From contig CAVXWP010000009.1 in the NCBI GenBank assembly GCA_963765495.1, forward strand, positions 809,240 to 873,239: a DNA stretch of 64,000 nt, read 5' to 3'. This document shows positions 2,966-54,178 of the stretch, one piece after another. Each line of letters begins with the position of its first letter. The stretch's first letter is position 1. The position numbers were made by a program, and so were the translations under genes. Under the pieces are notes generated by a model. The model saw only the letters and a program-made list of their open reading frames with translations, made no database searches and was not told the origin of the DNA. The stretch is from Blastocatellia bacterium. GTDB lineage: Bacteria; Acidobacteriota; Blastocatellia; UBA7656.

Positions 2966-4081
2966 TCAGATTCGAATTGCAGGTTCGGCGAGTCGCGCCG
3001 AGACAGCCTCTGTGACGGCGCTGACCGGGATGTCCATACATTGCCAGTGCCAGCATTTACGGCGATGGCACTCGTCGCGGCACCAGAGGTCGCGGCCTAC
3101 CGTCAGATCGCGTTTGTCGAAAGGGCCGTTGCGCTCGGGAGATGTCGGGCCGTAAATGCCGACTATGGGAGTGCGGCAGGCAGCCGCCAGATGTAGCGGC
3201 CCTGTGTCGCCGCCTACGAATAGCTCCGCCCGCCGGGCAAGAGCCGCGAATTGCTTTAGCGATGAGCGAAAGGGGCGGGCCGCGCCTGTCCGCGAACTGG
3301 CCGCTACAGCTTCGGCCAGCGCCTCCTCGCCCGGCCCGTAGGTTACAAACGATACGATCTGGCGCTCCGTCCACAACCAGTCCGCCACCTGTCCGTAACT
3401 CGAAACCGGCCAGAGCTTTGTCGGCCAGCCGCCGCCCGGGTTGAGTATGGCAAACCGTCTGCCTCGCTCGTTGATGGTTTCCATGACATAGCCTTCGTCT
3501 TCGCTGGGGATGACGATGGGAAATTCGTAGGCGGGCTGGCCAGACCGGGGATGAGTTATTCCTGACGCGCACGCGACATTCGGAGAATTTACGGCGAGGG
3601 AATCAAGGGCCGCACGGGCCAGCGCAAGATTCTTGTCAATAACATGTTTAATCTCTGCCGTCTTTACTTGATTGTTTAGAAAAAGACGACTTGCCTTTTC
3701 GCGCAGCTCGCCTGTTTCAAACCCCATCCGGCTCGCCGCCCTTGAGGCAGCCACGACCAGCCCGGATTTAATAAGCCCCTGAAAATCTATGGCAACATCT
3801 ATTGAGGATCGGGATTCATTTTTTAAGCCTCCCCGAACACGCCCGATCTGCTCACGGATGTCCGCAATAGTTGCATCGTTTAGCGGGCGCTTGCGCCAGG
3901 CGCGGGTGTCAACCTCTATCAATTCATCTATGGCGGGACAGTCTTTAAGAATGGCGCTCGCACGCCGCTCTACCACCCACGAGATGTGAGCGTCAGACAA
4001 ATTTCGCCTGATCTCAGCCGCCGCCGGCAGCGTATGAACCACGTCGCCTATCGAACTGAGCTTGACTATCAATATTTGCAT
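2966..4081 (-). CDS. Glycosyltransferase family 9 (ADP-heptose:LPS heptosyltransferase-like)
   Basis: N-terminus MQILIVKLSSIGDVVHTLPA is the canonical GT9 start; C-terminal GGDTGPLHLAAA motif. Confidence 0.85.
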   Translation of the reverse strand: MQILIVKLSSIGDVVHTLPAAAEIRRNLSDAHISWVVERRASAILKDCPAIDELIEVDTRAWRKRPLNDATIADIREQIGRVRGGLKNESRSSIDVAIDFQGLIKSGLVVAASRAASRMGFETGELREKASRLFLNNQVKTAEIKHVIDKNLALARAALDSLAVNSPNVACASGITHPRSGQPAYEFPIVIPSEDEGYVMETINERGRRFAILNPGGGWPTKLWPVSSYGQVADWLWTERQIVSFVTYGPGEEALAEAVAASSRTGAARPFRSSLKQFAALARRAELFVGGDTGPLHLAAACRTPIVGIYGPTSPERNGPFDKRDLTVGRDLWCRDECHRRKCWHWQCMDIPVSAVTEAVSARLAEPAIRI

Positions 4082-4222
4082 CGTATCCGGGTAAATAGAG
4101 ACTTTCGAAAAATCGCAAAGAGAGATTATACCACCTACCTCCCTCCTTAATTCATTACCCGAGTCGGCACAAGTACTGAAAGCGGCAACTGCTTCCGCCC
4201 GGATTTCTCTAATCCTCAATTC

Positions 4223-4420
4223 CAAAAATTGGTAACACTTTTGGCCACTCATCTGAAATGATCCGGCAGATACATTACTCCGTTTCCATATGTTTTGTAA
4301 TATATAAATCATTCAAATTTGGCAATTTATCTTACTTAAGTCTTCTTTTACAGATGTTTTCCGGATGTGGCAGTGGTTGTTGGTTATCCAAATATTTGGA
4401 ATTTAATTCAAATATTTGGA
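4223..4420. promoter_or_regulatory. Three copies of palindrome TCCAAA-(A/T)n-TTTGGA (4223-4236, 4387-4400, 4407-4420) in the divergent region upstream of the TonB-dependent receptor gene
   Basis: TCCAAATATTTGGA is a perfect 14-bp palindrome; related TTCCAAAATTTTGGAA recurs upstream of the paralogous receptor at 10697-10712. Confidence 0.45.
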
Positions 4421-4720
4421 TAAATTCAATAAAATTGATCTTCATTGAGGAACAAGAGAAAGCGAGCTAAATAGAGTTATAGCTAAGTTAAGCTCCCAAA
4501 CGGGTTTTCAGGTATAGGAATTGCCTGTATTGAACCGACTCAGGGGACATCCAGAGAGATTATGGGGCAATGCAACAAAGGTACTCACCGACTTTAGATA
4601 CGAGTGTATTTGGTCAAGCACAGGCTCCATTTTTATCAGTATTTCAAGGATAAGCTACTCCCCAAACTCTGTCGGTGAGCAAGACCAAACAATTCAACTA
4701 TTTATGAAGGAGGAGAATCC

Positions 4721-7700
4721 GTGAATAGAATCCTATCGATAAAAGGTTCTTTCCGTAAGGTGAGCAGCTTTCTCATGCTCATCGCTCTCCTGATCGGCCC
4801 CGGCTCTGCATTTTCAGCCCTGGCCTCTTCTCAGGAGATTTCCGGTAGCATTCAGGGGACGGTCAAGGACCCGGCCGGAGCAGTCATCCCCGATGCTTCC
4901 ATCACTGCTACGAGTGATAGACAAACCTTTAAGACCACATCCGACTCTGCTGGCAACTACACCATCTCGGCCCTCCCGCCGGGCAATTATGTAGTTACGG
5001 CATCGGGCTCCGGCTTCAAGTCGGTCAAGCGCGAGAATGTGCCTGTCGTACTTGGAAAGACCTTGCAGGTAAACTTCGACATGGAAGTTGCTGTAAGTGG
5101 AGAAGAAGTGACGATCACGGCAGCCGACGAGCCGCTGGTGGACGTGACCTCTACAAAGACGGCTACAAACGTGACCCAGCAAGAGATCAACGTCATACCG
5201 AAATCACTCAACTTCTCTTCGCTGATTCAGGTAGCCCCCGGAACCCGCGCTGAATCGAAATCAGGTGGATTCCAGATTGATGGAGCATCCGGCTCAGAGA
5301 ACGTCTTTATCGTAGACGGCGTGGAAGTTACCAGAATTGACGATGGAACTCTTGGCCGAACCAAGAACATTCCGAACGATTTCGTAAAGGAACTTCAGAT
5401 CAAGAGCGGCGGATATGAAGCAGAGTACGGCGGAGCGACAGGCGGAGTTGTAAACGTAGTGACCAGAGGTGGGACGAATGATTTCCACGGGGAACTGCGA
5501 TTCGAGTACACGTCTGACACGTTCCGAGCCGAAGACAACCCGACCTTGAGGCTTGCTCCGCAAGATACAGACACATTCGAGTACTTCCATAACCGGGACG
5601 GGAAGGACAAGACACGATTTTTCAGCCCGATCATCAACATCGGCGGGCCGATAGTCAAGGATCACGTATGGTTCTACACGAGCTATGCGCCACAGTACAC
5701 AAGGACGACACAACGGACCGATCTAATCCGTGTCAACCCGGGCGTGGGAGTAGATTCGCTCGACACTCGCTTTATCACGACGCGAGAAAAAATCGACTAC
5801 TTCCTGGGACGGCTTGACTGGGCCGCAAGCGACAGGCTTTCGGTATACGGCAACTTTATCAACAGCCCGATCAAATCCGAAGGTCAGCAACTGGGCGCTG
5901 AAGTCACAGGCTCTACGGCCTTCAATGACATTCGACTCGGCGAAAAAGGCGGCTACGTCCCGGCGTGGCAGGCAGCATTCGGAGTGAACTATTCGGCGAC
6001 GGATCACCTGATCCTGAGCTTCCGAGGCGGCCACACCTATCTCAACGATAAGGGCGGTTCCTACGACATTCCCGTAGGCATCCCGCTCTACACGATATCG
6101 GCTGCCTGCGCTCCTCCGCTCAACGGATGCGCTGCCGGTTCAACAGCTACGGGCACGCCGATCATACAGACCAACTTTGCAACGGCCTTCAACATCACTC
6201 GCCGTACGAACCTCAACTTTGATGCGACCTACATCACGAGGTTCCTCGGCCAGCAGCACACCTTCAAGGGTGGCTATCAGGTCAACCGCCTCAGCAACAA
6301 GGTCAACGAAGGCTATCAGGGCGGGATCATCAACTTCTACTTCAATCGTTCATATCTGGGCGAGCGAGGAACCTATGGTTATTATCGAACGACCGACTTC
6401 GGAACCGTAGGCGATGTCAACAGCAAAAACCAGGGTTTCTTCGTTCAGGATCAGTGGCAGATTCATCCTCGCTTGACCGCAAACATCGGTCTCCGCATTG
6501 AGAATGAGTTCCTGCCCGCATTCCCGATTGACACAACCTTCCACCCGACCATTCCAGCCGACGCGCAGATTTCGACCAAGCCGATTGATTTTGGCTGGGG
6601 CGACAAGATCGCGCCGAGAGTCGGATTGGCCTGGGATGTATTCGGAACCGGAAAGCTGAAAGTCTACGGCAGCTTCTCAATATTCTATGACACGATGAAG
6701 TATGAGCTTCCACGCGGCTCGTTCGGCGGCGATCACTTCATCAGAACATGGTACACGCTCGATACACCGAACTTCACGAGCATCAATCTCGGCAACACGC
6801 CGGGCAACATCATCGACGGACCGCTTGATTTCCGCGTACCGTCAAACGTAGTGCTTGCCGGTGAGCGGCCCACGATTGACCCGAACCTCAAGCCCACTAA
6901 AGAGCGAGAGTACACCTTTGGCGGCGACTATGCGCTGGGCACAAATCTTGTTGCAAGCGCACGATTCACCCGCAAGAGGCTTGACCGAACGATAGAAGAC
7001 ATCGGTGGGCTCGACGCGGCGGGCAACGAAGTGTACACGATAGGCAACCCGGGATTTGGAGTATCGATAACGGACTTCAATCCGCCGACGCCGAAGGCGG
7101 TACGCGAGTACACAGGGTTGGAATTGAGGCTCGACAAGAGGTTCACAAACAACTGGTACGCGAATCTGTCGTACACCTACAGCAAGCTGTATGGAAACTA
7201 CTCCGGGCTGGCCAGTTCGGATGAGAATGGACGAACAAGCCCGAACGTAAACCGCTACTTCGATTTACCGGAGCTTGTGTATGACACACATGGACAGCAG
7301 GTACTCGGCCGGTTGGCAACGGATCGACCGAACACGTTCAAGGCATTTGCCAGCTATCAGTTCCACTACTGGGGAATGAGTACGGACATCGGCGGTACGC
7401 AGTTGATCTACCAGGGCATACCGATCTCGACGATCCTATCGGAGCACGTCGGAGGGGGCGGAGCGGAAATCTATCCCGAAGGCCGAGGCGATCTGGGGAG
7501 AACAGAGGCGTTCACACAGACTGATCTGGTGATCAATCACCTGATCAAGCTGACGGAGAATGTGAAGCTGCGTTTCTCGATGAACGTATTCAATCTGTTC
7601 GACGAGAGAAACCAGACCAACATCTTCGCCAACTATCTTGCGGCGGGCCAGGTAGTGCAGTACGGAAATGCAAATGATTCGTTTGATGTAGCATTTCCGA

Positions 7701-7834
7701 TCTTCATCAACTCGAACGGAGATTGGCAGCAGAGAATCGCGAATCAGGGTCTGGTTGTTGACCCCCGGTTTGGCCAGGCCAACACCTTCCAGGCACCGCG
7801 CGAAGCTCGCTTCGCAGTCGGCGTCCAGTGGTAA
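4721..7834 (+). CDS. TonB-dependent outer-membrane receptor with N-terminal carboxypeptidase-regulatory-like domain (GTG start, RBS GGAGG)
   Basis: 1037 aa; signal peptide, CarbopepD_reg-like domain (GNYTISALPPGNYVVTASGSGF), plug-like region and long beta-barrel; GAAGGAGGAGAATCCGTG start context. Confidence 0.85.
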   Translation: MNRILSIKGSFRKVSSFLMLIALLIGPGSAFSALASSQEISGSIQGTVKDPAGAVIPDASITATSDRQTFKTTSDSAGNYTISALPPGNYVVTASGSGFKSVKRENVPVVLGKTLQVNFDMEVAVSGEEVTITAADEPLVDVTSTKTATNVTQQEINVIPKSLNFSSLIQVAPGTRAESKSGGFQIDGASGSENVFIVDGVEVTRIDDGTLGRTKNIPNDFVKELQIKSGGYEAEYGGATGGVVNVVTRGGTNDFHGELRFEYTSDTFRAEDNPTLRLAPQDTDTFEYFHNRDGKDKTRFFSPIINIGGPIVKDHVWFYTSYAPQYTRTTQRTDLIRVNPGVGVDSLDTRFITTREKIDYFLGRLDWAASDRLSVYGNFINSPIKSEGQQLGAEVTGSTAFNDIRLGEKGGYVPAWQAAFGVNYSATDHLILSFRGGHTYLNDKGGSYDIPVGIPLYTISAACAPPLNGCAAGSTATGTPIIQTNFATAFNITRRTNLNFDATYITRFLGQQHTFKGGYQVNRLSNKVNEGYQGGIINFYFNRSYLGERGTYGYYRTTDFGTVGDVNSKNQGFFVQDQWQIHPRLTANIGLRIENEFLPAFPIDTTFHPTIPADAQISTKPIDFGWGDKIAPRVGLAWDVFGTGKLKVYGSFSIFYDTMKYELPRGSFGGDHFIRTWYTLDTPNFTSINLGNTPGNIIDGPLDFRVPSNVVLAGERPTIDPNLKPTKEREYTFGGDYALGTNLVASARFTRKRLDRTIEDIGGLDAAGNEVYTIGNPGFGVSITDFNPPTPKAVREYTGLELRLDKRFTNNWYANLSYTYSKLYGNYSGLASSDENGRTSPNVNRYFDLPELVYDTHGQQVLGRLATDRPNTFKAFASYQFHYWGMSTDIGGTQLIYQGIPISTILSEHVGGGGAEIYPEGRGDLGRTEAFTQTDLVINHLIKLTENVKLRFSMNVFNLFDERNQTNIFANYLAAGQVVQYGNANDSFDVAFPIFINSNGDWQQRIANQGLVVDPRFGQANTFQAPREARFAVGVQW

Positions 7835-8165: not shown

Positions 8166-9185
8166 TCAATTCTTTTGATTTGCTTTCTCGCGCAACTGCA
8201 CGATCAGGCTTTCGTATTTCTGACGCTGAGCCGTCTGATGCTCAGTCGGCGGGATGGTCTTCAAATAAGCATCCAGGACATCGGCCGCTTCTTTATACTG
8301 CTTGTTGTCGCTATAGAGAGTGGCGAGATAGAGGTAGGCATCTTTTACATCTTCCCCGCCGATTTCAATAGCTTTTTTCAAAAACTGCATAGCTTCCATT
8401 TTTGTATCCTTTGCCTGAGCCAGGACTATTCCCAGTTGCATATTTGTATAAGCCGAATCGGACTTGAGTTCCACTGTGCGCCTGAGCATCTCTATCGCAC
8501 GGTCTCGCTCGTTCAAACTGAAGAGAGTATAACCGAGCAGGTAACAGCTCTGCCAGCTGTCCTTATTTACTTCGACTGCGTGTTCAAGAATCGGCCTTGC
8601 CGCCTCGAACTGATTGCGCTTTACATATTCGAGTCCCATCACCTCAAGCGCGTCATAGTAATCGGGAAAGATTTTGACCGAACTCTTAAAAGCCGCAATC
8701 GCCTCATCGAAAGAGCCCTGTTCCAGGCTTTTCACGCCTTTAAGGTATTCATCTTTGGCTTTAGCCGGGACATCCTGATAAAAGACCAGACCGGGCGACG
8801 CACCCGCTTTTTCGTCTCGTTTTGCCTCTTTTACTCTCAGCACGAAATCAACGCGGAAGACCTCGCCGCCCCGATTGCTGACGGTAAAGGGGTTGACCTC
8901 GACTCTCTCGGTTTGCCGCTCGAAATCCGATCCCGCAGGCTCGACCCTCACATAGAAGGTCCCCGCAGTCAGGTTGTTAAACCTGTAGCGCCCGGCGCTG
9001 TCGGTATAGACCATTCTGAGTTCCGAATAGCCTTCGTTGAGAAGCGATACGCGGGCATTTTGATAGGGTTGATTCTTGGTCGTAGTGACCCGCCCGTCTA
9101 TGGTATTGCGCCCCTGAAAAGCAGAACTGCCGATCAGAGGTTGCCAAAACGTGAGTGCTAGCGCGATGAAAAAAACTGCTGGCAT
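8166..9185 (-). CDS. Secreted protein: carboxypeptidase-regulatory-like domain + TPR repeats (paralog 1 of 3)
   Basis: Signal peptide MPAVFFIALALTFW; GRVTTTKNQPYQNARVSLL...GTFYVRVEPAG domain, then TPR-like repeats; paralogous to 9387-10436 and 14285-15346. Confidence 0.75.
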   Translation of the reverse strand: MPAVFFIALALTFWQPLIGSSAFQGRNTIDGRVTTTKNQPYQNARVSLLNEGYSELRMVYTDSAGRYRFNNLTAGTFYVRVEPAGSDFERQTERVEVNPFTVSNRGGEVFRVDFVLRVKEAKRDEKAGASPGLVFYQDVPAKAKDEYLKGVKSLEQGSFDEAIAAFKSSVKIFPDYYDALEVMGLEYVKRNQFEAARPILEHAVEVNKDSWQSCYLLGYTLFSLNERDRAIEMLRRTVELKSDSAYTNMQLGIVLAQAKDTKMEAMQFLKKAIEIGGEDVKDAYLYLATLYSDNKQYKEAADVLDAYLKTIPPTEHQTAQRQKYESLIVQLREKANQKN

Positions 9186-9304
9186 AACTTTAATTCTCCA
9201 GGTTCCGTCGTCCACAAAATATGATGAGTGATTGGTTGAACACATTCTATCAGAAAAGCTCTTGCGGTTCTATTTATGATTGAGAGAGAAAGCGGGTGGG
9301 CAAA

Positions 9305-9386: not shown

Positions 9387-10436
9387 TCACTTCTTTGTCG
9401 CAGCCGCTTTCTCTCTCAGTTTTTCTACAATCTTTTTGAACTGTTCGATCTGGGCTTGAACTTTCTGGTCGCCGTTTTTCGGGAGGGTTTTAATATAAGC
9501 CTCAAGCGCGTCGGCCGATTCGCTATATTGCTGATTCAGATTATACAGCTTGGCAAGTTCGAAATAGGAATCGGGCACCTGGCTGCCCGCCGCATCGGCG
9601 ACCTTCTTCAGTCTCTGAATCGCCTCTTCCCGTGTTGTCTTGTCTTCGGCCAGCGTCATCCCGAGCCGCATGTTGGCGTTTATCGAATCGGGGTTTAGTT
9701 CAAGCGCCTTTCTGAGCGCGCCTATGCCCTCCTCTCGTTGTTTCAATTCAAGCAGGGTGACGCCGAGCGAGTAAAAGGCCCTGTAGGCATCTTTATTTAT
9801 CTCAACTGCGTGAGCCAAAAGCGGGCGCGCAGCCTCATATTCTTGTCGTTTGAGATACTCTGTGCCGAGCATTTCAAGAGCGTAAAAGTAATCCGGGAAA
9901 AGCTCTATGGCCTTCTTCAGCGAGGCCGCCGCCGAATCGAAATCATTCTTATCGAGGCTCTTCATACCTTTCATAAACTCTTCCCTGGCAGGGTCCGGGA
10001 TTTCCTGATGAAAGGTTGTGGCGTCTGCGCCCGTTGGACCTTTGGCGGCGTTCGTGGTTTTTGGCTGGAATCTGAACTCGACCCTGAATATCTCACCGCC
10101 GCCCGTGGTGCTCATGCCGATAGGGTTGACTTCGACCCTTTCGGTCTGCTGATCGTATTCGCCTCCGATTGGTTCTACCCTGACGTAAAACGTTCCGCGC
10201 GGCACGCCCTGCAATCGGAAGCGCCCGGCTCCGTCCGTGTAGGCCAGCCTGAGTTGGCCGTAGCCGTCATCCAAAAGAAAGACGCGGGCATTTTCAAGAC
10301 CCTGATTGTTACCGACCGTCACCCGACCTTCGATAGTGTTAGACGAAGGCCGAATACTTGTATCCTGAAGGATTGGATTGATCGTTCCGCCAAAACCGAC
10401 AAAGACCGATAAGCTGAAGAGAAAGACTAGAAACAC
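9387..10436 (-). CDS. Secreted protein: carboxypeptidase-regulatory-like domain + TPR repeats (paralog 2 of 3)
   Basis: Same architecture and conserved blocks (FPDYYDALE, INANMRLGM, YLYLAKLY) as 8166-9185. Confidence 0.75.
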   Translation of the reverse strand: MFLVFLFSLSVFVGFGGTINPILQDTSIRPSSNTIEGRVTVGNNQGLENARVFLLDDGYGQLRLAYTDGAGRFRLQGVPRGTFYVRVEPIGGEYDQQTERVEVNPIGMSTTGGGEIFRVEFRFQPKTTNAAKGPTGADATTFHQEIPDPAREEFMKGMKSLDKNDFDSAAASLKKAIELFPDYFYALEMLGTEYLKRQEYEAARPLLAHAVEINKDAYRAFYSLGVTLLELKQREEGIGALRKALELNPDSINANMRLGMTLAEDKTTREEAIQRLKKVADAAGSQVPDSYFELAKLYNLNQQYSESADALEAYIKTLPKNGDQKVQAQIEQFKKIVEKLREKAAATKK

Positions 10437-10676
10437 GGTGAAATCCTCCTAAAGAAATGTATTTGCGGATGCGAAGAAACTGCTAAACGGCGCGCCTATT
10501 CTAGCAGATATGTCGATACCAATCTATCAGGGTCAGGGCAAAATCAGCGCCGTCGAGCCATCTGCGGCAAATCTCGCTCCACGAAGGGAGAAGGACTTCA
10601 AGTCGCAAGGGATTTGTCATTTTCATTGAGCCTGGCTCAAAGCCGCCACCTACTGGCGGCAATAGATAAAAGATCA

Positions 10677-10712
10677 TCCAAAATTTTGAATGAAATTCCA
10701 AAATTTTGGAAA
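10677..10712. promoter_or_regulatory. Palindromes TCCAAAATTTTGAA / TTCCAAAATTTTGGAA upstream of the second (pseudogenised) TonB-dependent receptor
   Basis: 16-bp perfect palindrome; same half-site as the sites at 4223-4420. Confidence 0.45.
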
Positions 10713-10968
10713 GCCTACGAACTTTACAAACGAATGGAAAGAGGCTGAAAAGAGCTAAGTAAAAGATATTACTATCTTAACCTGAAACGCTGAATCTTGG
10801 GTATCAAAGTTGCCAGGAAGGGCGGCTACGGGGAATTCCTATAATATTGCGAATGAACAAAACCGAGGCTCCGAACTTCGCAGTAGGATAGGAAAGCTAC
10901 TTCCCAATCTTAGCTAGAGATCAAAGACCTAAAATTTAGGATATCTGTATTTAGAAGGAGGAGAATCT

Positions 10969-13900
10969 GTGAAAAGAGTTTCATCACTAAGAGGTTATTA
11001 CCGTAAGGTGAGCAGCTTCTTTTTGCTCTTGGCTCTCTTGATCGGCCCCGGCTCTGCATTCACAGTGCTGGCGTCGCAGGAGGTAAGCGGCAATATCGAA
11101 GGTACATTGAAAGACTCAAGTGGAGCGGTCATCCCCAATGCAGCCGTCTCTGCAACGAGCCCGCAGCGCACCTATAACGCAACCACCAATGACGAGGGCT
11201 ATTACAGGTTTAACAACCTGCTGCCGGGCGTCTATACGGTCACGGCCAGCGGTACCGGCTTTGGCACGGTCAAGCGAGATGAAGTAACGGTCGAGCTTGG
11301 GCGCACGCTGCAAGTAAACTTTGAATTGAAGCCTGTTGCTTCGGGTGAGTCGGTCACTGTAACCGCGTCAGACGAGCCAATCGTTGACATTACCTCGAGC
11401 AAAACGGCCACCAACATCAGCAAAGAGAAGATTGACATCCTGCCGAAAGCCAGCCTCAACTTCTCATCCGTGATTGATGTCGCTCCCGGCGCTCGCAACG
11501 AGCCTCGTTCGGGGCAGTTCCAGATTGACGGCGCGTCAGGCTCCGAGAACGTCTTTGTTATCGACGGCGTCGAAGTCACTCGCGTCATCGGTGGTACGCT
11601 TGGCTCGACCAAGAACATACCCGTTGATTTCGTTCAGGAAGTTCAGATCAAGAGCGCCGGTTATGAAGCGGAATTCGGCGGCGCGACAGGCGGCGTTATC
11701 AACGTCGTGACAAAAGGCGGAACCAACGAGTTCCACGGCGAGGGTCGTCTTGGAGTACAGCTCCGACACCTTCCGCGCCGAAGACAACCCGACTCTGAGG
11801 ATCGTTCCGTCCGACCCGACGGCGCAGACCTTTGAGTATTTCAATAATCCGAGCGGCAAGGATGATACACGGTTCCTGAATCCGACCTTCCTGCTCAACG
11901 GACCGATCATCAAGGACAAGCTCTGGTTTTCAATCGGAGCCGCGCCCGAATACACCAAGACGACCCGACTGGTTCGCCAACTCACTCCCGTCATCTCGGG
12001 TGATCCCACAAGAACTCTGATCAATTCACGCCCGATTACCCAGAGAGTGCGCAACGATTACAACATCGTTCGTCTTGACTGCCTCGCCGTCGAGCAAGCT
12101 GTCGGTTTACGGCAACTTCATTCACACTCCTTTGAAGACCGAAGGGATCTTGAACTTCGGCTCTTTCACTTCCGGGTTCGATACAACAAGCGCTACTACG
12201 CTTACCGAATCCGCGTTATGATTTCCAGGGCGGTTACACCCCTGCATGGCAGGCTTCTTTTGGCGCGAACTATAGCGTCACCCCGCACCTGATCGTCGCT
12301 TTCCGAGGCGGCCACACATACTTTAATGACAAGGGCGGCAGCTATGACATCCCGGTCAATACGCCGAACCTGATCATCAGCGTTCCGTGCACTTCGACCA
12401 GCAACAATGCCGGCCCGTCCAACTGCACGCCGTTTACGACCTGCAACCGGTGCGAGCATCGTCACAAACCAGACGACCTCGTTCGACATCACTCGTCGTA
12501 CGAACCTCAACTTTGACGCCACCTACATCGGTCGCTTGCTCAATCAGCAGCACACGATCAAGGGCGGCTACCAGACAAACAGGATCAGCAATGATGTTTT
12601 GTTCGGTTTTTCAGGTGGCAGATTCCAGTTCGTCTTCGGACGAGCCAGACCCAGCGGACCGAGGTACCTACGGATATTACGTTGCTGACGAGTTTGCGCG
12701 TTCAGGGTAAGGTCAGCAGCAGCAACCAGGGCTTCTTTATTCAGGACTCCTGGCAGGTTCATCCGCGTCTAACTCTGAACCTCGGTCTGCGCGTCGAGAG
12801 TGAATTCCTTCCTTCGTTCCCGATTGACCGCGCCGGTCACCCGGATATTCCCGAAGGTCATCGAAGCCTCAACCAAGCCGATTGATTTCGGATGGGGCGA
12901 CAAGATTGCTCCGCGTATCGGCGGCGCGCTTGACGTTTTCGGCGATGGCCGATTGAAGATTTCCGGCAGCTACTCGGTATTCTTTGACACGATGAAGTAC
13001 AACCTGCCGCGCGGTTCGTTCGGCGGCGAAATCTTCCTCCGCACTTTCCGCGAACTGAATACGGCTGATGTCTCGGGAATCAGTCTCACGAATCAGCCCG
13101 GCAGAATCATTTCGAAGGTCCGGCAGACCTTCGCTTCCCGGCCAACGTCAATCTGCCCGGCGAGCGTCCCGGCATCGACCCGGACCTCAAACCGTATCGC
13201 GAGCACGAGTTCTCTTTTGCCGGCGATTACACTTTCGGTCGCGACCTCGTTGTCGGCGCGCATTTCACCCGCAAGGTGCTTGATCGCGCAATCGAAGACA
13301 TAGGCGGCGTCGACCCGGTAACGGGAACCGAATTCTTCACAATCGGCAACCCCGGTCGCGGGATTGCCGTGGATGCATTCGATCCTCCGACACCGGATGC
13401 GATTCGTGAATACACCGGATTAGAGCTTCGCGTTGACAAACGCTTCTCGAATCACTACTACTTCAATGGTTCTTACCTGCACAGCAAGCTGTATGGTAAC
13501 TACTCCGGTCTTGCAAGCTCGGACGAAAATGGTCGTACGGACCCGAACGTCAACCGCTACTTCGATCTGCCGTTCCTGAACTTCAACACGGATGGCTCGG
13601 TGCAAAAGGGTCGCCTGGCGACAGACCGCCCGAACACCTTCAAGTTCTTTGGTGGCTACCGTGGAGATTTCAACCTGTTCGGTAAAGGCATGAGCTTTGA
13701 CGTAGGCATTGGCGAGCGCATTTATCAGGGTATCCCGCTCTCGACAGAAGTTCCGACATGGTTGAAGCCGGAAGCGGCGCGGCGGCATTTCTTGCCGGAC
13801 GTGGCGATGTCGGTCGGACCCCCTGGTTTACGCAGACCGACGTGCTCTATACCCACTATATAAACGTGAGCGAAAATGTGAAGCTTCTGTTCCGCATCAA

Positions 13901-14123
13901 CGTGAACAACCTGTGGGATGAGCGCAATGCGACGGATCAGTTCCGCACCCTGCTCGGACCCGGCCAATCGCTGTTCTACCCGGATCTTGCGACCTTTACA
14001 TCGGGTCAGGATTTCCGGCAGCGGATTGCCGACCAGCATCTGGTCACAGACCCGCGCTTCCTCCAGCCGAACGTCTTCCAGACACCGCGTGAGGCGAGGA
14101 TCGCTTTCGGAGTCAAGTTCTAG
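10969..14123 (+). pseudogene. TonB-dependent receptor paralog disrupted by at least 6 frameshifts (fragments 10969-11835, 11750-12292, 12407-12688, 12682-12885, 12800-13303, 13276-13863, 13758-14123)
   Basis: Successive ORF fragments in different frames each align to consecutive parts of the intact receptor at 4721-7834 (for example NVFVIDGVEVTR, TDRPNTFK and the FGVKF C-terminus); same GTG/RBS start context. Confidence 0.8.
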
Positions 14124-14284: not shown

Positions 14285-15346
14285 TTATGATCTGGCCTTC
14301 TGTCTCATTTGATCGAGGACTTTTTTATACCGTTCGCGTAACTGCGTTTCGGCTTCGGGATTGAGCTTGATATAGGTTTCCAAGGCGCTGACCGCTTCCT
14401 TATATCGTTCCTTCTCGGCATAAAGCTTTGCCAGATAGAGATAAGCGTCTGGAACCTGCTTTCCGGCCAATGCTGCCACTTTCTCGAAAGATTTTAGGGC
14501 TTCTGCATAGGTCTCCTTGTTATTGACTAAAATCATCCCCAATCGCATATTGGCATTGATCGAATTGGGATTTATTTCAATCGCCCGGCGCAGCGCCTTG
14601 ACCCCCTCATCCGCCTGTTTAAGCTCAACACGCGCAACCCCAAGATAGTAATAGCTGGGCCAGGCATTTTTGTTGATTTCTGTAGCGTGCTCAAGTATCG
14701 GCACTGCCGAGTTGAAATCGTGTCGTCTCACGTATTCTGAACCGAGTTGCTCAAGAGCGTCATAGTAATCCGGGAACAACTCAAGGGCCTGTTTCAGCGA
14801 TTCAATCCCCCTATCGGCATCGTTCTCTTCTATGCTTTTTATGCCGGCGGCATATGCTCTCCTTGCCGCCTCGGGCACTTCCTGATAAAAGACGGCTTCG
14901 CTTGATCTCGCAGTAGCGCCACTCTTTTCATCGCCCGGCAGTCTTCTCGGCTTCAGTATAAAATCCGTGCGGAATATCTCTCCGCCTCTCCCGCCGCTCC
15001 GGCCATTTATGGCCACGGCTTCGATTCGTTGTGATTGTCGCTCGTACATGCCATCGGTCGGGTCTACCAGGATATTGTAAGTGCCTGATGCGACTCCCCT
15101 GAAGGTGAAGCGCCCGGAACCATCCGTATAAACAGTGGCGATTTCAGAGTATGCATCGTTTTGGAGAAAGACGCGCGCGTTGACTATCGGGCGGCGTTCA
15201 GGCGTCATGACCTGCCCGTCAATTGTGTTTCGCGCTTGAGCGATTGCGCCCACGGAAAAGAACTGTCCGCCCGCAAATACCATAGCGATAAACAATGATG
15301 TAATCACGTGCTGTACCTCCCGCAAAGCGATTGATTTGAACGGCAT
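14285..15346 (-). CDS. Secreted protein: carboxypeptidase-regulatory-like domain + TPR repeats (paralog 3 of 3)
   Basis: Same architecture as 8166-9185 and 9387-10436. Confidence 0.75.
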   Translation of the reverse strand: MPFKSIALREVQHVITSLFIAMVFAGGQFFSVGAIAQARNTIDGQVMTPERRPIVNARVFLQNDAYSEIATVYTDGSGRFTFRGVASGTYNILVDPTDGMYERQSQRIEAVAINGRSGGRGGEIFRTDFILKPRRLPGDEKSGATARSSEAVFYQEVPEAARRAYAAGIKSIEENDADRGIESLKQALELFPDYYDALEQLGSEYVRRHDFNSAVPILEHATEINKNAWPSYYYLGVARVELKQADEGVKALRRAIEINPNSINANMRLGMILVNNKETYAEALKSFEKVAALAGKQVPDAYLYLAKLYAEKERYKEAVSALETYIKLNPEAETQLRERYKKVLDQMRQKARS

Positions 15347-42457: not shown

Positions 42458-42892
42458 TCATTTCTTTGACTTCGACTGCTTCCTGACGGATTCGAGTATT
42501 TCCTCAACCGTAATCTCTGATAAAACCTGTTCCATAGCCGTTTCGACTCTGCTTAACACATCACCGAGCACCGGCGCGATGTTTGCGCCTATGCGGCAGC
42601 CGGGGTCAGGCGGCTGCCGATGCAGAGAGAATATCTCTCCTCCTTCGACCGCCCTATACACATCGAGAAGGCTTATCTGGTTCGGAGCGCGGGTTAGCTT
42701 CGAGCCGCCGTATGCGCCCGTCTGCGATGTGATAAGCGAGGCTTTTGAAAGTGCCGACATAATCCGTCTTATTACAACCGGATTCGTGTTAACGCTACAG
42801 GCCATGTCTTCCGACTTTAATTGCTCATCGTCGTAATAAGCCATCAGCGCCAACATATGTACGGCCACCGCAAAACGACTGCTTCCTGACAT
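42458..42892 (-). CDS. Rrf2 family transcriptional regulator
   Basis: N-terminal wHTH AVAVHMLALMAY...VNTNPVVIRRIMSAL typical of Rrf2/BadM. Confidence 0.8.
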   Translation of the reverse strand: MSGSSRFAVAVHMLALMAYYDDEQLKSEDMACSVNTNPVVIRRIMSALSKASLITSQTGAYGGSKLTRAPNQISLLDVYRAVEGGEIFSLHRQPPDPGCRIGANIAPVLGDVLSRVETAMEQVLSEITVEEILESVRKQSKSKK

Positions 42893-42907: not shown

Positions 42908-42938
42908 TGTAACAAGTATAGTTACAAATCAAAATTTG
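42908..42938. promoter_or_regulatory. Putative Rrf2 operator: palindromes TGTAAC-N7-GTTACA and ACAAAT-CAAA-ATTTGT immediately upstream of the Rrf2 gene
   Basis: Two overlapping perfect inverted repeats within 50 bp of the regulator start. Confidence 0.4.
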
Positions 42939-43254
42939 TCAAGGCCCAATTTTAGGCGATCCAATTTTTTGACTCTTCGAGCAATGGACAGAAAAAGAGT
43001 AATAAGGTTTATTTGAGCGAATGGAGGAGGGGAACAGGCCACGGATGCCGCGGATCAGGCGGATTTATGCGGGGCCGATCATATGATGACTAATCCGCGA
43101 AAACACGTCTGATCCGCGTTTATCCGTGGCCTATTTCTATTTTGCCTTTCAAAATTTTGGAAATCTGAATGAGTTTGCCCTACTGCTAACTGTTGCACCG
43201 AGTCCAGGTTGCCAGCTTGCGCTACCCGAGCGGCGCAAGATAAACTCTTGCCTT

Positions 43255-51404: not shown

Positions 51405-52043
51405 ATGCAGCTATTGCTTGCAGTGCTCATAGAGTTCTGGAGTCTCCTCAGAAAACTCGGGGGGCTTGGCCTGATCCTTATGGGTTTTCTTGACAGTTCC
51501 GTCATTCCAACCCCGGGCGGGTTGGATTTGCTGACCATCGTGCTTGCGGCGGGGCAAAAAACCTGGTGGCCTTATTATGCCGCGATGGCTGTTGCCGGGT
51601 CGGTTATCGGCGGGTATCTGAGCTATGAACTTGGGCGCAAGGGCGGTGAAGAGGCCATTGAAAAAAGAATGTCCAAAAAGAAATTTGACCGCGTATGCCG
51701 AGCCTTCGAGAAATGGGGATTCGGAGCCGTCTTTGTACCCACGATCCTGCCTCCCCCTTTTCCGATAGGTCCGATTTTTATGGGCGCGGGGGCGCTTGAT
51801 TATCCGCTCAAAAAATTCCTGCTCGCGCTCACCGCAGGCCGCGTCATCAGATTCACTATAGTCGCTTACATGGCTTCAAGATATGGCCAGTACGTAATAA
51901 AGTTCTTCTCAGATAATTACGTGATGATACTCCTGATAATCGCGGGGCTGACGGCAGCAGGAGGCTTAGCCTTTTTTCTTTTCCGCTCACACGACAAACA
52001 AACCAAAAAGAAAGCGTCCGATGCCACGGCAAGCGGAGATTAA
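51405..52043 (+). CDS. DedA/YqaA family membrane protein
   Basis: GFLDSSVIPTPGGLDLL motif and 4-5 TM helices. Confidence 0.7.
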   Translation: MQLLLAVLIEFWSLLRKLGGLGLILMGFLDSSVIPTPGGLDLLTIVLAAGQKTWWPYYAAMAVAGSVIGGYLSYELGRKGGEEAIEKRMSKKKFDRVCRAFEKWGFGAVFVPTILPPPFPIGPIFMGAGALDYPLKKFLLALTAGRVIRFTIVAYMASRYGQYVIKFFSDNYVMILLIIAGLTAAGGLAFFLFRSHDKQTKKKASDATASGD

Positions 52044-54178
52044 ATGACCGGCACAGGGACGGCCATCTCTTCTCCGCCAACAGGCGCAAGTGGAATTATT
52101 AACCGGAACTCGGTTCCGTGGCCGTCGCGTGCGGGGCTCTTGAGTTCTATAATGCCGCCAAGCTCAACGATACGGCGCTGAACTATGGCAAGTCCCAATC
52201 CCGTGCCTCTGGACTTGGTGGTATAGAAAGGCTCGAACACCCGGCGCTGATCTTCTTCGGGAATGCCCGGCCCCGTGTCTGTGATCGTAAGCATCACGCT
52301 GGACGAAGACGGGGTGCCTCTCTCCGAGTGGGTCTTTTGCCTGTCGAATTCCACGCTCGCAACCACGGCGACCTCTCCCCCCTCGCCCGTTGCCTGAAGA
52401 CCGTTGAGCACAAGATTGCCGAGCGCCTCGCGCACCGCCGAGGCCTGCGCGCCTGTAAGCGTCACATCCTGATCAACCACAACGTTCAGCGCGACGCGCA
52501 GTTCGCGAGCCTCTTTGCCAATGAGTGCCATCGTGGAGTCGAGCAATTCCGACATCGACACGGGGCGGCTGTCTTGATGATTTGGGCGCGAGAAGGCGAG
52601 AAGTTGCGAAACAGTCCGGTTGAGGCGATCTATTTCGCTGACGATCAACTCCAGATCACGGTCGTATTCCTTGAGCGACTCTTCTTCGCGCATCACCTGG
52701 GCTATGGATTTGATCGAAGAGAGCGGGTTTTTGACTTCGTGCGCTACGGTAGCGGCCATCTGTCCAAGCGTAGCCAGTCGCTCGCGCGCGGCAAGCTCAC
52801 GTTCGAGTCGTATCTTTTCTTCTACAAGCAGGCAGCCTTCGACTTCGATGGCTACCTGCCCCGCCAGCACATCGAGAATAGATCGCTTCTCAGATGTCAA
52901 CGTCTGAGCTTCGGCCTCTATTATCATCAGCCCTATAACTTTGTTTTCGCGTCTGAGGCCGTAAGCGATGCTCGCGCCCAGTTCCGTCAAATCCTCGTCC
53001 GTCTCGATCATATCCGATTGCCAGAGGCGGAGCTTTTCAATCAGCCGCCGCTCGGGGCCTTCGGCGAGCGTAGCGATTGAAGGGACTACGCGAACCCGCG
53101 CCAGATCAAGCCCCCGGCGAATGATCTCTTCCGTGTACCGCACAACCGCGTCGAGTTCACCAAGCCCCGCAGTGCCTGCCGACACCTGTCGCACAACGTC
53201 GCGGTACAACCCGATCTCATGAGCAAACAGGCGATGCACCATTCTCTCGATCACCCGTATGACGGGACCGGCCAGCGCGACCATCCCGAGTATCAATATC
53301 GCTTCGATCACTCCGGGCCGCGACCCAAATCGCTCGACAAAAAATTGATCCAGTTGCCTCACGCCGTAAGTGTAAACCGCTATAAAGACGACCGCGAATC
53401 CCGCGTACATCAAGCTGTCTTTTATGATGATGTCCACTATCTTGTAGCGATAGACGTAGTAGGCCACAAAGAAAGTCGGCAAAAGCGACAGCAAAATGTA
53501 GGCTACCCAGAGAAAATCGTTCGGGCCTGAGCGACGCAACCCGACTATGGCGAATTCGAACCCGCCTATGATGAACAGGAAAATGGCGAGCAATTTGAAG
53601 AACGCTCGCTCGCGTGTGGCAGATATATTTAGGCGATCCTTGATCACCCAGTCAATTGCCGACGCCGACCAGAAGGCATACATCCACCATACGGAATAGG
53701 GAATAAGCAATCTTCTGAGCTTTACAAAAAACAACTGGTAATCGCCGGTATTGATCAGGTAGATCGCATAAGGCAGCACGATCATCGGCGCATAAAAAGC
53801 CAGCCCCGCGATTCGGGCCTGCCTCTCGCTTGCAGTCCGATTCTTATTAAATGAACTCCAGACGGCAAAGTGCGCGTGAAGTAGCGCGGAAGGGACCAGC
53901 GCTACGCCGATCATAGTAATGGTATCCCAGACTCTCAAAAGAGAGGTTAGCCGCTCGCTGCCAAGCAGCAGAAGGTGCAGCATAGTGAGCATATTTCCGA
54001 GAAACCACCCGCCCAGACAAAGACCCAGCAATACGAATGTGCGTTCGGCAAGCGTCATATGCTCGCGTGCGCCCAGCCGCCTCTTCCAGATCAACCAGGC
54101 GATGTAGAGGTGCAGCGCCGCCCCGGTGGCGAATCCTACGAGCTTTAATATTTCAAGCAGTGACATAACCGAAGACAA
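52040..54178 (-). CDS. Sensor histidine kinase with N-terminal multi-TM sensor region
   Basis: HisKA H-box ATVAHEVKNPLSSI and HATPase_c G-boxes (DTGPGIPE, GTGLGLAIV). Confidence 0.85.
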   Translation of the reverse strand: MSSVMSLLEILKLVGFATGAALHLYIAWLIWKRRLGAREHMTLAERTFVLLGLCLGGWFLGNMLTMLHLLLLGSERLTSLLRVWDTITMIGVALVPSALLHAHFAVWSSFNKNRTASERQARIAGLAFYAPMIVLPYAIYLINTGDYQLFFVKLRRLLIPYSVWWMYAFWSASAIDWVIKDRLNISATRERAFFKLLAIFLFIIGGFEFAIVGLRRSGPNDFLWVAYILLSLLPTFFVAYYVYRYKIVDIIIKDSLMYAGFAVVFIAVYTYGVRQLDQFFVERFGSRPGVIEAILILGMVALAGPVIRVIERMVHRLFAHEIGLYRDVVRQVSAGTAGLGELDAVVRYTEEIIRRGLDLARVRVVPSIATLAEGPERRLIEKLRLWQSDMIETDEDLTELGASIAYGLRRENKVIGLMIIEAEAQTLTSEKRSILDVLAGQVAIEVEGCLLVEEKIRLERELAARERLATLGQMAATVAHEVKNPLSSIKSIAQVMREEESLKEYDRDLELIVSEIDRLNRTVSQLLAFSRPNHQDSRPVSMSELLDSTMALIGKEARELRVALNVVVDQDVTLTGAQASAVREALGNLVLNGLQATGEGGEVAVVASVEFDRQKTHSERGTPSSSSVMLTITDTGPGIPEEDQRRVFEPFYTTKSRGTGLGLAIVQRRIVELGGIIELKSPARDGHGTEFRLIIPLAPVGGEEMAVPVPVI

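What the first reader, a model, noticed from the sequence alone, without database searches (positions are those of the whole stretch)
4223..4420. Conserved palindromic operator-like sites TCCAAA-(W)n-TTTGGA upstream of both TonB-dependent receptor genes
TCCAAATATTTGGA is a perfect 14-bp palindrome. It occurs twice, 6 bp apart, at 4387-4420, and a related TTCCAAAAATTGG is at 4223-4236. Upstream of the second receptor, TCCAAAATTTTGAA and the perfect 16-bp palindrome TTCCAAAATTTTGGAA occur at 10677-10712. The motif matches no binding site I recognise (Fur, CRP/FNR, LexA). It is conserved in two paralogous leaders about 300 nt before the start codon, which suggests a dedicated dimeric regulator.
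Basis: seen in the sequence. Interest (0 to 1): 0.5.

Follow-up and report, generated by a model that had tools for sequence, protein, structure and literature searches.

The report
Sigma-54 enhancer sites before receptor genes
The paired palindromes are real and conserved, and are most likely enhancer-type binding sites where an NtrC-family activator switches on sigma-54 promoters of outer-membrane TonB-dependent receptor genes in Acidobacteria: a textbook mechanism, but a regulon I could not find described.

Summary
The palindrome pairs exist (4387-4420; 10677-10710), each two 14-bp sites 20 bp centre to centre, and are far above chance (5 exact matches vs 0 expected). In ten homologous leaders (42% identity) the only conserved islands are the pair and this element. 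In 74 metagenome loci chosen by the pair alone, 55% have a near-canonical TGGCAC-N5-TTGC promoter within 260 bp, against 0.9% of control regions. Spacings fall into classes about 11 bp apart, and most downstream genes are Oar-like TonB-dependent receptors. So the sites are upstream activator sequences rather than repressor operators. A candidate regulator emerged: an unnamed, highly conserved Acidobacteriota NtrC-family response regulator with its kinase, encoded beside exbB-exbD-exbD. In four orthologous loci it is preceded by the same 20-bp-spaced pair; in three of them a sigma-54-type promoter follows at 98-100 bp. The mechanism is ordinary; the regulon appears undescribed. The window's own promoters match the consensus only moderately, and the regulator is not in the window.

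The parts
4387..4400 (.). UAS site, distal, leader of receptor 1: TCCAAATATTTGGA (perfect palindrome)
   Evidence: conserved column block in alignment A2
4407..4420 (.). UAS site, proximal, leader of receptor 1: TTCAAATATTTGGA, 20 bp centre to centre from the distal site
4510..4525 (+). Predicted sigma-54 (-24/-12) promoter AGGTATAGGAATTGCC, 90 bp after the pair. Inferred transcription start about 4537, giving a 5' leader of about 185 nt
   Evidence: GG and TTGC are invariant in 10 leaders. Rank 35 of 127,970 window positions with a matrix built from independent loci
4721..7834 (+). TonB-dependent receptor 1 (CarboxypepD_reg + Plug + beta-barrel; Oar-like), the regulated gene
   Evidence: Pfam
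10677..10690 (.). UAS site, leader of receptor 2: TCCAAAATTTTGAA
10697..10710 (.). UAS site, leader of receptor 2: TCCAAAATTTTGGA, 20 bp from its partner
10799..10814 (+). Predicted -24/-12 element GGGTATCAAAGTTGCC, 89 bp after the pair. A weak match on its own; homologous in sequence and position to the receptor 1 element
   Evidence: rank 486 of 127,970
10566..10581 (-). Possible divergent sigma-54 promoter TGGAGCGAGATTTGCC, 96 bp from the same pair, facing the CarboxypepD_reg-TPR gene
   Evidence: rank 17 of 127,970. L026 shows promoters on both sides of one pair
9387..10436 (-). CarboxypepD_reg + TPR protein gene, divergent from receptor 2; a possible second target of the shared UAS
   Evidence: Pfam; this kind of gene is a conserved neighbour of the receptors
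10969..14123 (+). Receptor 2, disrupted (frames 3, 1, 3, 2 against intact homologue P0042)
43148..43161 (.). Orphan single site TTCAAAATTTTGGA between an Rrf2 regulator gene and a radical-SAM/SPASM gene; membership in the regulon is uncertain
   Evidence: 0 expected by chance; no convincing -24/-12 nearby

Best explanation
Each pair of TCCAAA-N2-TTTGGA palindromes is an upstream activator sequence (enhancer). Two dimers of a sigma-54-dependent activator (bacterial enhancer-binding protein, bEBP) bind the two sites, which lie on the same face of the helix 20 bp apart. They seed the active AAA+ oligomer, and by DNA looping this contacts sigma-54 RNA polymerase held at a -24/-12 promoter about 90 bp downstream (4510-4525; 10799-10814). 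ATP hydrolysis then opens the promoter and the receptor gene is transcribed with a 145-185-nt leader. The second pair may also serve a divergent promoter (10566-10581, minus strand) for the adjacent CarboxypepD_reg-TPR gene. The most likely activator is an unnamed, highly conserved Acidobacteriota NtrC-family response regulator (REC, AAA+, HTH_8; about 460 aa). It would be phosphorylated by a GAF-PAS histidine kinase of about 950 aa. The two are encoded together beside exbB-exbD-exbD, and they appear to be autoregulated through the same site pair. Shown here: the sites, their conservation, their coupling to -24/-12 elements, and the architecture of the regulator loci. Inferred: binding, activation, the identity of the regulator and the signal it senses.
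For: (1) Footprint. In 10 homologous receptor leaders with 42% mean identity, the only conserved islands are the palindrome pair and GG...TTGC spaced as -24/-12. The palindrome family occurs in 12 of 14 leaders that were chosen without reference to the motif. (2) Independent association. Of 74 metagenome loci selected only by the pair pattern, 55% have a sigma-54 score of 18 or more (near-canonical TGGCAC-N5-TTGC) within 20-260 nt. Only 0.9% of 1546 control regions from the same contigs do. (3) Spacing. Distances from the pair to the -24 element fall into classes at 52, 65-66, 74-79, 85-88 and 97-102 bp. The Rayleigh test gives R = 0.70-0.77 and p about 1e-8 to 1e-10 at periods of 11-11.5 bp on 36 dereplicated promoters. 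This is face-of-helix phasing, as expected for looping activators. (4) Targets. The downstream genes are mostly Oar-like TonB-dependent receptors. (5) Regulator. In L063 a pair with the same two site sequences as W1 (TCCAAATATTTGGA and TTCAAATATTTGGA) and a promoter at 98 bp precede a kinase plus NtrC-type regulator operon. Orthologous operons L096, L097 and L098 (67-77% identical regulators) each carry a pair of TCCA-N6-TGGA-type sites exactly 20 bp apart upstream of the kinase gene. L096 and L098 have promoters at 99 and 100 bp; the L097 pair is degenerate, one point below the scoring threshold, and no promoter was found there. In L063, L096 and L098 it is the only such pair in the 8-17-kb locus, against 0.03 expected per 64 kb. 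The operon is adjacent to exbB-exbD-exbD, the energiser of TonB-dependent receptors. The recognition helix NPTTLNEKLKRLNI is at least 90% conserved in 119 family representatives, and GAFTGA is present. (6) No sigma-70-like promoter above chance in either leader, and no RNA element.
Against: The window's own -24/-12 elements deviate from the consensus (GGTAT instead of GGCAC, and no T at -26). With an independent matrix, W1 ranks in the top 0.027% of window positions, roughly p = 0.05 for a 200-nt search. The W2 plus-strand element ranks only in the top 0.38%, which is not significant alone. Their spacings (89-90 bp) fall between the 85-88 and 97-102 classes. No bEBP or rpoN gene lies in the 64-kb window, so their presence in this genome is assumed. 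The regulator assignment rests on autoregulation logic in other genomes. GAF-type bEBPs also lie near similar pairs (L069, L082), so more than one activator may read this motif. L097's pair is degenerate and no good promoter was found there. The metagenome loci are not phylogenetically independent, so the p-values are optimistic. L019 has a good pair but only a poor -24/-12 candidate.
Confidence: 0.8

Rival explanations
1. The sites are sigma-54 enhancers as above, but they are bound by a different activator than the exbBD-linked NtrC-type regulator. One possibility is a GAF-domain bEBP. Another is several paralogous bEBPs that share the PTTL recognition helix.
For: GAF-AAA+ bEBPs are encoded divergently from pair-controlled genes in L069/L032 and L082, and their HTH regions resemble that of the NtrC-type regulator. 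'Group 2' loci with TCCGAA half-sites and 19-bp spacing control non-receptor genes.
Against: Those loci have a distinct half-site (TCCGAA), spacing and promoter class, and their targets are not receptors. The receptor-type architecture (TCCAAA, 20 bp) recurs upstream of the NtrC-type operon in four orthologous loci, and that operon is linked to exbBD.
Confidence: 0.2
2. One reading: the palindromes are operators where a dimeric repressor (or a classical class I/II activator) controls a sigma-70 promoter.
For: Perfect dyad symmetry is typical of dimeric repressors. One sigma-70-like match (TTCAAA-17-TAAAAT, 4407-4435) overlaps the proximal W1 site.
Against: That match is within chance (1 found, 1.7 expected), and none exists in leader 2 (0 found). 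The sites lie 270-480 nt before the start codons. The only other conserved element is a -24/-12 motif at a phased distance. Pair-selected loci are about 60-fold enriched for canonical sigma-54 promoters.
Confidence: 0.06
3. The 34-bp inverted repeat acts as a structure rather than a protein site: an AT-rich hairpin terminator, or a small mobile or repetitive element.
For: The terminator scan flags the W2 pair as a 14-pair hairpin followed by a T-rich run. Some pair-pattern hits in low-GC contigs are tandem arrays (L045, L047, L057), and one lies between convergent genes (L031).
Against: Both window pairs lie between divergently transcribed genes, where a terminator has no role. The stem has only 3 G-C pairs. 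Across orthologues the half-sites are conserved but the spacers are not, and the position is fixed relative to a -24/-12 element. Mobile elements would not keep that phasing.
Confidence: 0.03

Closest known systems
NtrC (NRI) enhancer at glnAp2 in enteric bacteria
   Same: Two dyad-symmetric sites for dimers of a REC-AAA+-HTH response regulator lie about 100-140 bp upstream of a -24/-12 promoter. The sites nucleate the oligomer, activation is by looping and depends on the face of the helix, and the regulator's own operon is autoregulated (established knowledge).
   Different: The half-site is different (TGCACC-N5-GGTGCA for NtrC from my own knowledge, TCCAAA-N2-TTTGGA here). The regulator scores 429 bits against a cut-off of 559 for the NtrC equivalog. 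The targets are outer-membrane receptors, not nitrogen assimilation genes.
AtoS/AtoC (best NCBIfam hits) and ZraS/ZraR two-component sigma-54 systems
   Same: Same domain architectures for kinase and regulator. AtoC is the best-scoring named family for the regulator and AtoS for the kinase. These regulators bind paired inverted repeats upstream of sigma-54 promoters.
   Different: The scores are far below the curated cut-offs (457 vs 714; 285 vs 646). The kinase has an extra N-terminal region of about 450 aa plus a GAF domain. The genomic context is exbBD, not ato or zra genes.
Aquifex aeolicus NtrC1/NtrC4 (closest solved structures, 4l4u and 1ny5)
   Same: Full-length similarity (E about 1e-100): REC-AAA+-HTH regulators that activate through tandem upstream sites.
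   Different: No evidence of shared DNA specificity or targets; a different phylum.
PrsK/PrsR (PEP-CTERM box sigma-54 system)
   Same: An environmental-bacteria two-component sigma-54 system that controls many secreted or envelope protein genes through a shared upstream box. The regulator gives a sizeable hit (399 bits).
   Different: Below the cut-off of 503. The kinase lacks PrsK architecture (96 vs 300). The targets are receptors, and no PEP-CTERM or exosortase context was seen.
Classical control of TonB-dependent receptors: Fur/Zur repression, FecA-FecR-FecI surface signalling, Bacteroidetes hybrid two-component systems
   Same: Dedicated transcriptional control of receptor genes, with genomic linkage of the regulator to TonB-system components.
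   Different: Those act at sigma-70 or ECF-sigma promoters through operators or anti-sigma factors. Here the promoter type is -24/-12 with a remote enhancer.

Membership tests
Sigma-54 (RpoN) dependent promoter | GG at -24 and GC at -12 separated by exactly 10 nt | tested here: met
   4510-4525 AGGTATAGGAATTGCC and 10799-10814 GGGTATCAAAGTTGCC. GG and TTG are invariant and C nearly invariant across 10 leaders.
Sigma-54 (RpoN) dependent promoter | Extended consensus TGGCAC-N5-TTGCW | tested here: inconclusive
   In the window the -24 region is GGTAT. W1 ranks in the top 0.027% and W2(+) only in the top 0.38% with an independent matrix. The consensus is met strongly in related loci: L011 has TGGCACGTCTATTGCC, and 55% of pair-selected loci score 18 or more.
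Sigma-54 (RpoN) dependent promoter | rpoN present in the genome; transcription start about 12 nt after the GC | not testable with these tools
   The window holds no rpoN, and the rest of the genome and transcript data are unavailable.
bEBP upstream activator sequence (enhancer) | One or more dyad-symmetric sites, typically a pair, about 70-200 bp upstream of the -24/-12 element | tested here: met
   Two 14-bp dyads 20 bp apart, 89-90 bp before the -24 element in the window; 52-102 bp in 47 of the 48 pair-selected loci with a promoter score of 17 or more, and 88-173 bp in homologous leaders.
bEBP upstream activator sequence (enhancer) | Helical phasing between the sites and the promoter | tested here: met
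   Rayleigh R = 0.70-0.77, p about 1e-8 to 1e-10 at periods of 11-11.5 bp on 36 dereplicated promoters. Caveats: related lineages, and the window spacings (89-90) sit between two classes.
bEBP upstream activator sequence (enhancer) | Bound by a sigma-54 activator protein | not testable with these tools
   Indirect only: the same pair architecture precedes a kinase-bEBP operon in four orthologous loci.
NtrC-family response regulator (candidate binder) | REC + Sigma54_activat AAA+ (with GAFTGA) + HTH_8 domains | tested here: met
   Pfam on L063:2718-4094; GAFTGA visible; the same architecture is precomputed for P0121-P0240.
Named equivalogs AtoC, NtrC, PrsR, ZraR, NtrX | Score at or above NCBIfam's curated cut-off | tested here: not met
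   457 vs 714, 429 vs 559, 399 vs 503, 388 vs 760, 387 vs 600. The regulator is not filed under any of them.
   Sigma-70-like matches: 1 found vs 1.7 expected, and 0 vs 0.8. The sites lie 272-334 nt before the start codons.
Known cis-regulatory RNA in the leader (riboswitch etc.) | Rfam match, or conserved and stable structure | tested here: not met
   0 Rfam hits in the window. The leaders are 34% identical with no invariant column. Fold z-score 0.08.

The most novel reading that the evidence does not exclude
The exbBD-linked kinase and sigma-54 regulator, the CarboxypepD_reg proteins encoded beside them and beside every receptor, and the CarboxypepD_reg N-terminal extension of the receptors together form a trans-envelope signalling circuit. 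Substrate occupancy of an Oar-like receptor would be relayed through the CarboxypepD_reg/TPR partners and the TonB-ExbBD machinery to the kinase, which then activates the whole receptor regulon through the TCCAAA-N2-TTTGGA enhancers. This would be a sigma-54 and two-component counterpart of FecA-FecR-FecI surface signalling, and a master regulator of nutrient uptake across Acidobacteriota.
Probability: 0.12. Interest if true: 0.75.

Novelty: new member of a known kind. Interest (0 to 1): 0.5.

Why it matters
Acidobacteriota are among the most abundant soil bacteria, are hard to culture, and have almost no experimentally defined transcriptional regulons. Their genomes carry dozens of Oar-like TonB-dependent receptors of unknown substrate. 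A defined enhancer motif, a promoter class and a candidate two-component regulator linked to exbBD give three things. First, receptor regulons can be predicted directly from MAGs. Second, there is a concrete protein-DNA pair to test by EMSA or DAP-seq. Third, there is a handle on which signal induces these uptake systems. The mechanism itself (bEBP, looping, sigma-54) is textbook, so the value is in the new regulon and its breadth, not in a new principle.

Tried and rejected
1. Divergent 448-aa ORF as a sigma-54 activator: it is a GT9 heptosyltransferase that starts at 4081.
2. Leader RNA or riboswitch: no Rfam hit, no conservation, no excess stability.
3. Sigma-70 promoter with an operator: nothing above chance.
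4. The site near 4223 as part of the system: a 2-mismatch, chance-level, unpaired and unconserved match.
5. A regulator encoded in the window: no bEBP by tblastn. The histidine kinase at 52043-54178 has no adjacent bEBP. The Rrf2 regulator next to the orphan site has its own different palindrome.
6. The orphan site at 43148 as a third sigma-54 unit: the best nearby -24/-12 candidate ranks only 2713 of 127,970.
7. A 'many phyla' distribution inferred from the 32-66% GC range: homologues of the low-GC receptor are named Acidobacteria or Aminicenantes, so I claim only Acidobacteriota classes.
8. My first sigma-54 regex had the spacing off by one and was replaced by a weighted score.
9. P0001, the closest relative, could not be fetched.
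10. Five completed literature searches found no description of the motif or regulon; a sixth was rejected for its syntax.

Full report
OBSERVATION

The reported strings are in the sequence, with small corrections.
- Leader 1 has TCCAAATATTTGGA (4387-4400, a perfect palindrome) and TTCAAATATTTGGA (4407-4420). The second is one mismatch off, so it is not an identical second copy.
- Leader 2 has TCCAAAATTTTGAA (10677-10690) and TCCAAAATTTTGGA (10697-10710).
- Both pairs are spaced exactly 20 bp centre to centre.
- The degenerate pattern TYCAAAWWTTTGRA has 5 exact matches in the window against 0.00 expected from shuffles.
- Relaxed pairs spaced 19-22 bp are expected 0.03 times per 64 kb. The window has exactly the two reported.
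- The 'related' TTCCAAAAATTGG is at 4220-4232, not 4223-4236. It is a 2-mismatch match of the kind expected about once per window, is unpaired and is not conserved. I treat it as chance.
- A fifth, single site (43148-43161) was not in the finding.

SURROUNDINGS

The gene after leader 1 (4721-7834) is a TonB-dependent receptor with an N-terminal CarboxypepD_reg domain, a plug and a barrel. This is the Oar-like type common in Acidobacteriota.

The gene after leader 2 is a paralogue that needs at least three frame changes to align with an intact homologue.

Both pairs lie between divergently oriented genes. Upstream of leader 1 is a GT9 heptosyltransferase that starts at 4081. Upstream of leader 2 is a CarboxypepD_reg-TPR gene (9387-10436, minus strand). 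No regulator lies nearby, and no bEBP is encoded anywhere in the window.

The two leaders share GGTAT-N5-TTGCC at 4511-4525 and 10800-10814, 89-90 bp after each pair. It has the GG-N10-GC geometry of a sigma-54 (-24/-12) promoter.

ORTHOLOGOUS LEADERS

I fetched homologous receptor loci without reference to the motif: L001 and L002 from genomes, and L011-L021 via homologous proteins. Twelve of 14 receptor leaders carry TCCRAA-N2-TTYGGA sites 230-480 nt before the start. These are pairs spaced 19-22 bp, or one good site plus a degenerate partner.

In an alignment of ten leaders with 42% mean identity, the only conserved islands are the palindrome pair and GG...TTGC. The best sigma-54-like element in each leader lies 66-173 bp downstream of the pair, and L011 has a textbook TGGCACGTCTATTGCC.

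INDEPENDENT TEST

I scanned metagenome contigs for the pair pattern alone and obtained 74 loci.
- 55% have a near-canonical sigma-54 promoter (score 18 or more of 19.5) within 20-260 nt on one side. Only 0.9% of 1546 control regions from the same contigs do.
- The distance from the end of the pair to the -24 element falls into classes at 52, 65-66, 74-79, 85-88 and 97-102 bp. On 36 dereplicated promoters the Rayleigh statistic peaks at a period of 11-11.5 bp (R = 0.70-0.77, p about 1e-8 to 1e-10).
- These p-values ignore shared ancestry, so they are optimistic. Still, the pattern is what face-of-helix dependent looping predicts.
- The genes behind these promoters are mostly Oar-like receptors.
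- Homologues of one low-GC example are named Acidobacteria or Aminicenantes, so I claim spread across Acidobacteriota classes, not across phyla.

CANDIDATE REGULATOR

Among the pair-selected loci, L063 has the same two site sequences as W1 (with a different 6-nt spacer) and a promoter at 98 bp. These precede a 965-aa GAF-PAS histidine kinase and a 459-aa REC-AAA+-HTH_8 regulator.

The regulator family is very conserved: more than 120 clusters at 66-84% identity, named Acidobacteriota where a name exists.

Three orthologous loci from large contigs show a fixed neighbourhood: a large upstream gene (a CarboxypepD_reg protein in L096 and L097, no domain on record in L098), kinase, regulator, ExbB, ExbD, ExbD, TPR. 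Each has a pair of TCCA-N6-TGGA-type sites exactly 20 bp apart just upstream of the kinase gene:
- L096: TCCAAGAATATGGA / TCCAGAATATTGGA, with a promoter at 99 bp.
- L097: TCCAATTTATTGAT / TTCAACACATTGGA. This pair is degenerate, one point below the scoring threshold, and no good promoter was found.
- L098: TCCAAAAAAATGAA / TCCAATAAAATGGA, with TGGCACAAAACTTGCA at 100 bp.

In L063, L096 and L098 this is the only such pair in the locus. The recognition-helix region NPTTLNEKLKRLNI is at least 90% conserved across 119 representatives.

The regulator is below the curated cut-off of every named NCBIfam equivalog, including AtoC, NtrC, PrsR and ZraR. Its closest solved relatives are the Aquifex NtrC1 and NtrC4 proteins.

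The simplest reading is autoregulation: this regulator binds the motif. The linkage to exbBD fits a role in controlling TonB-dependent receptors. This step is inference. I give it about 0.6, compared with about 0.8-0.85 for 'sigma-54 enhancer' as such.

MECHANISM

Two dimers bind the two dyads on one face of the DNA. Phosphorylation of the receiver domain allows the AAA+ ring to assemble. The ring loops to sigma-54 polymerase at -24/-12 and remodels it using ATP. Transcription would start near 4537 and 10826, giving leaders of about 185 and 145 nt.

Because the site pair is symmetric, it could work in both directions. At leader 2 a minus-strand element TGGAGCGAGATTTGCC (10566-10581) lies 96 bp from the pair and faces the CarboxypepD_reg-TPR gene. 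It ranks 17th of 127,970 window positions with a matrix built from independent promoters. L026 shows promoters at 99 bp on both sides of one pair.

WEAK POINTS

- The window's own promoters are only moderate matches. With the independent matrix W1 ranks 35th, roughly p = 0.05 for a 200-nt search. The W2 plus-strand element ranks 486th, which is not significant alone. It belongs to a disrupted gene.
- Their 89-90-bp spacing sits between two spacing classes.
- rpoN and the regulator are not in the window.
- GAF-type bEBPs sit beside related pairs in L069 and L082. A second group of loci has TCCGAA half-sites, 19-bp spacing and the promoter TGGCCCGCTTCTTGCG at 97-100 bp, and controls non-receptor genes. 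So more than one activator may read this motif family.

RIVALS

- A repressor operator at a sigma-70 promoter has no support: sigma-70-like matches are at or below chance, and the sites are far from the genes.
- A hairpin terminator or repeat element is excluded by the divergent gene context, the AT-rich stem, the conservation of half-sites rather than of pairing, and the phased promoter. However, a few pattern hits elsewhere are unrelated tandem repeats (L045, L047, L057), and one lies between convergent genes (L031).
- A leader RNA is not supported.

NOVELTY

The mechanism is the classical NtrC-type enhancer. Five completed full-text searches found no description of this motif, of sigma-54 control of Oar-like receptors, or of an exbBD-linked NtrC-type system in Acidobacteria; a sixth search was rejected for its syntax. 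That library lacks most subscription journals, so 'undescribed' is provisional. I rate it a new member of a known kind, of moderate interest: it defines a testable regulon in a poorly studied, ecologically dominant phylum.

Noticed in passing
window 10969-14123 (+): The second TonB-dependent receptor gene is broken into at least four frame segments (frames 3, 1, 3, 2 against the intact homologue P0042). It is a pseudogene, or a stretch with assembly indels, while neighbouring genes look intact.
   Followed up: partly
window 8166-9245 (-), 9387-10436 (-), 14285-15346 (-); L011-L019: Three paralogous genes of about 350 aa encode CarboxypepD_reg + TPR proteins. A gene of this kind sits next to the Oar-like receptor in nearly every homologous locus, so this is a conserved gene pair of unknown function.
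   Followed up: partly
window 43148-43161: A single exact motif match (TTCAAAATTTTGGA) lies in the intergenic region between an Rrf2 regulator gene (42461-42892, minus strand) and a radical-SAM/SPASM gene. There is no partner site and no convincing -24/-12 element, so its role is unknown.
   Followed up: partly
window 42908-42926: A palindrome TGTAAC-N7-GTTACA lies immediately upstream of the Rrf2 gene start. It is probably that regulator's own operator.
   Followed up: no
L096 3038-12120; L097; L098: Conserved Acidobacteriota cluster: a large upstream gene (a CarboxypepD_reg protein of about 600 aa in L096 and L097), GAF-PAS histidine kinase, sigma-54 response regulator, ExbB, ExbD, ExbD, TPR protein. 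The first 450 or so residues of the kinase match no Pfam family.
   Followed up: partly
L026, L027, L037, L042-L044, L051, L056, L059, L065, L071, L073, L082, L085: A second class of loci has TCCGAA-N2-TTCGGA pairs (19-bp spacing) and a nearly invariant promoter TGGCCCGCTTCTTGCG at 97-100 bp. These precede small secreted proteins, a sulfatase and a carbonic anhydrase. L026 has promoters on both sides of one pair. A GAF-type bEBP lies nearby in L082; L069 (a different promoter class) also has one.
   Followed up: partly
L045 3985-4103; L047 4280-4335; L057 3143-3236; L031 943-976: Some matches to the pair pattern are 20-21-bp tandem repeat arrays in low-GC contigs, or lie between convergent genes, with no sigma-54 promoter. 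They are unrelated sequences that happen to fit the pattern.
   Followed up: no
window 4526-4720 and 10815-10968: The two long 5' leaders share blocks (for example AAGCTACTYCCCAA and the GAAGGAGGAGAATC ribosome-binding region). These blocks are not conserved in orthologues, and the leader does not fold better than shuffles, so they are probably left over from the gene duplication.
   Followed up: yes
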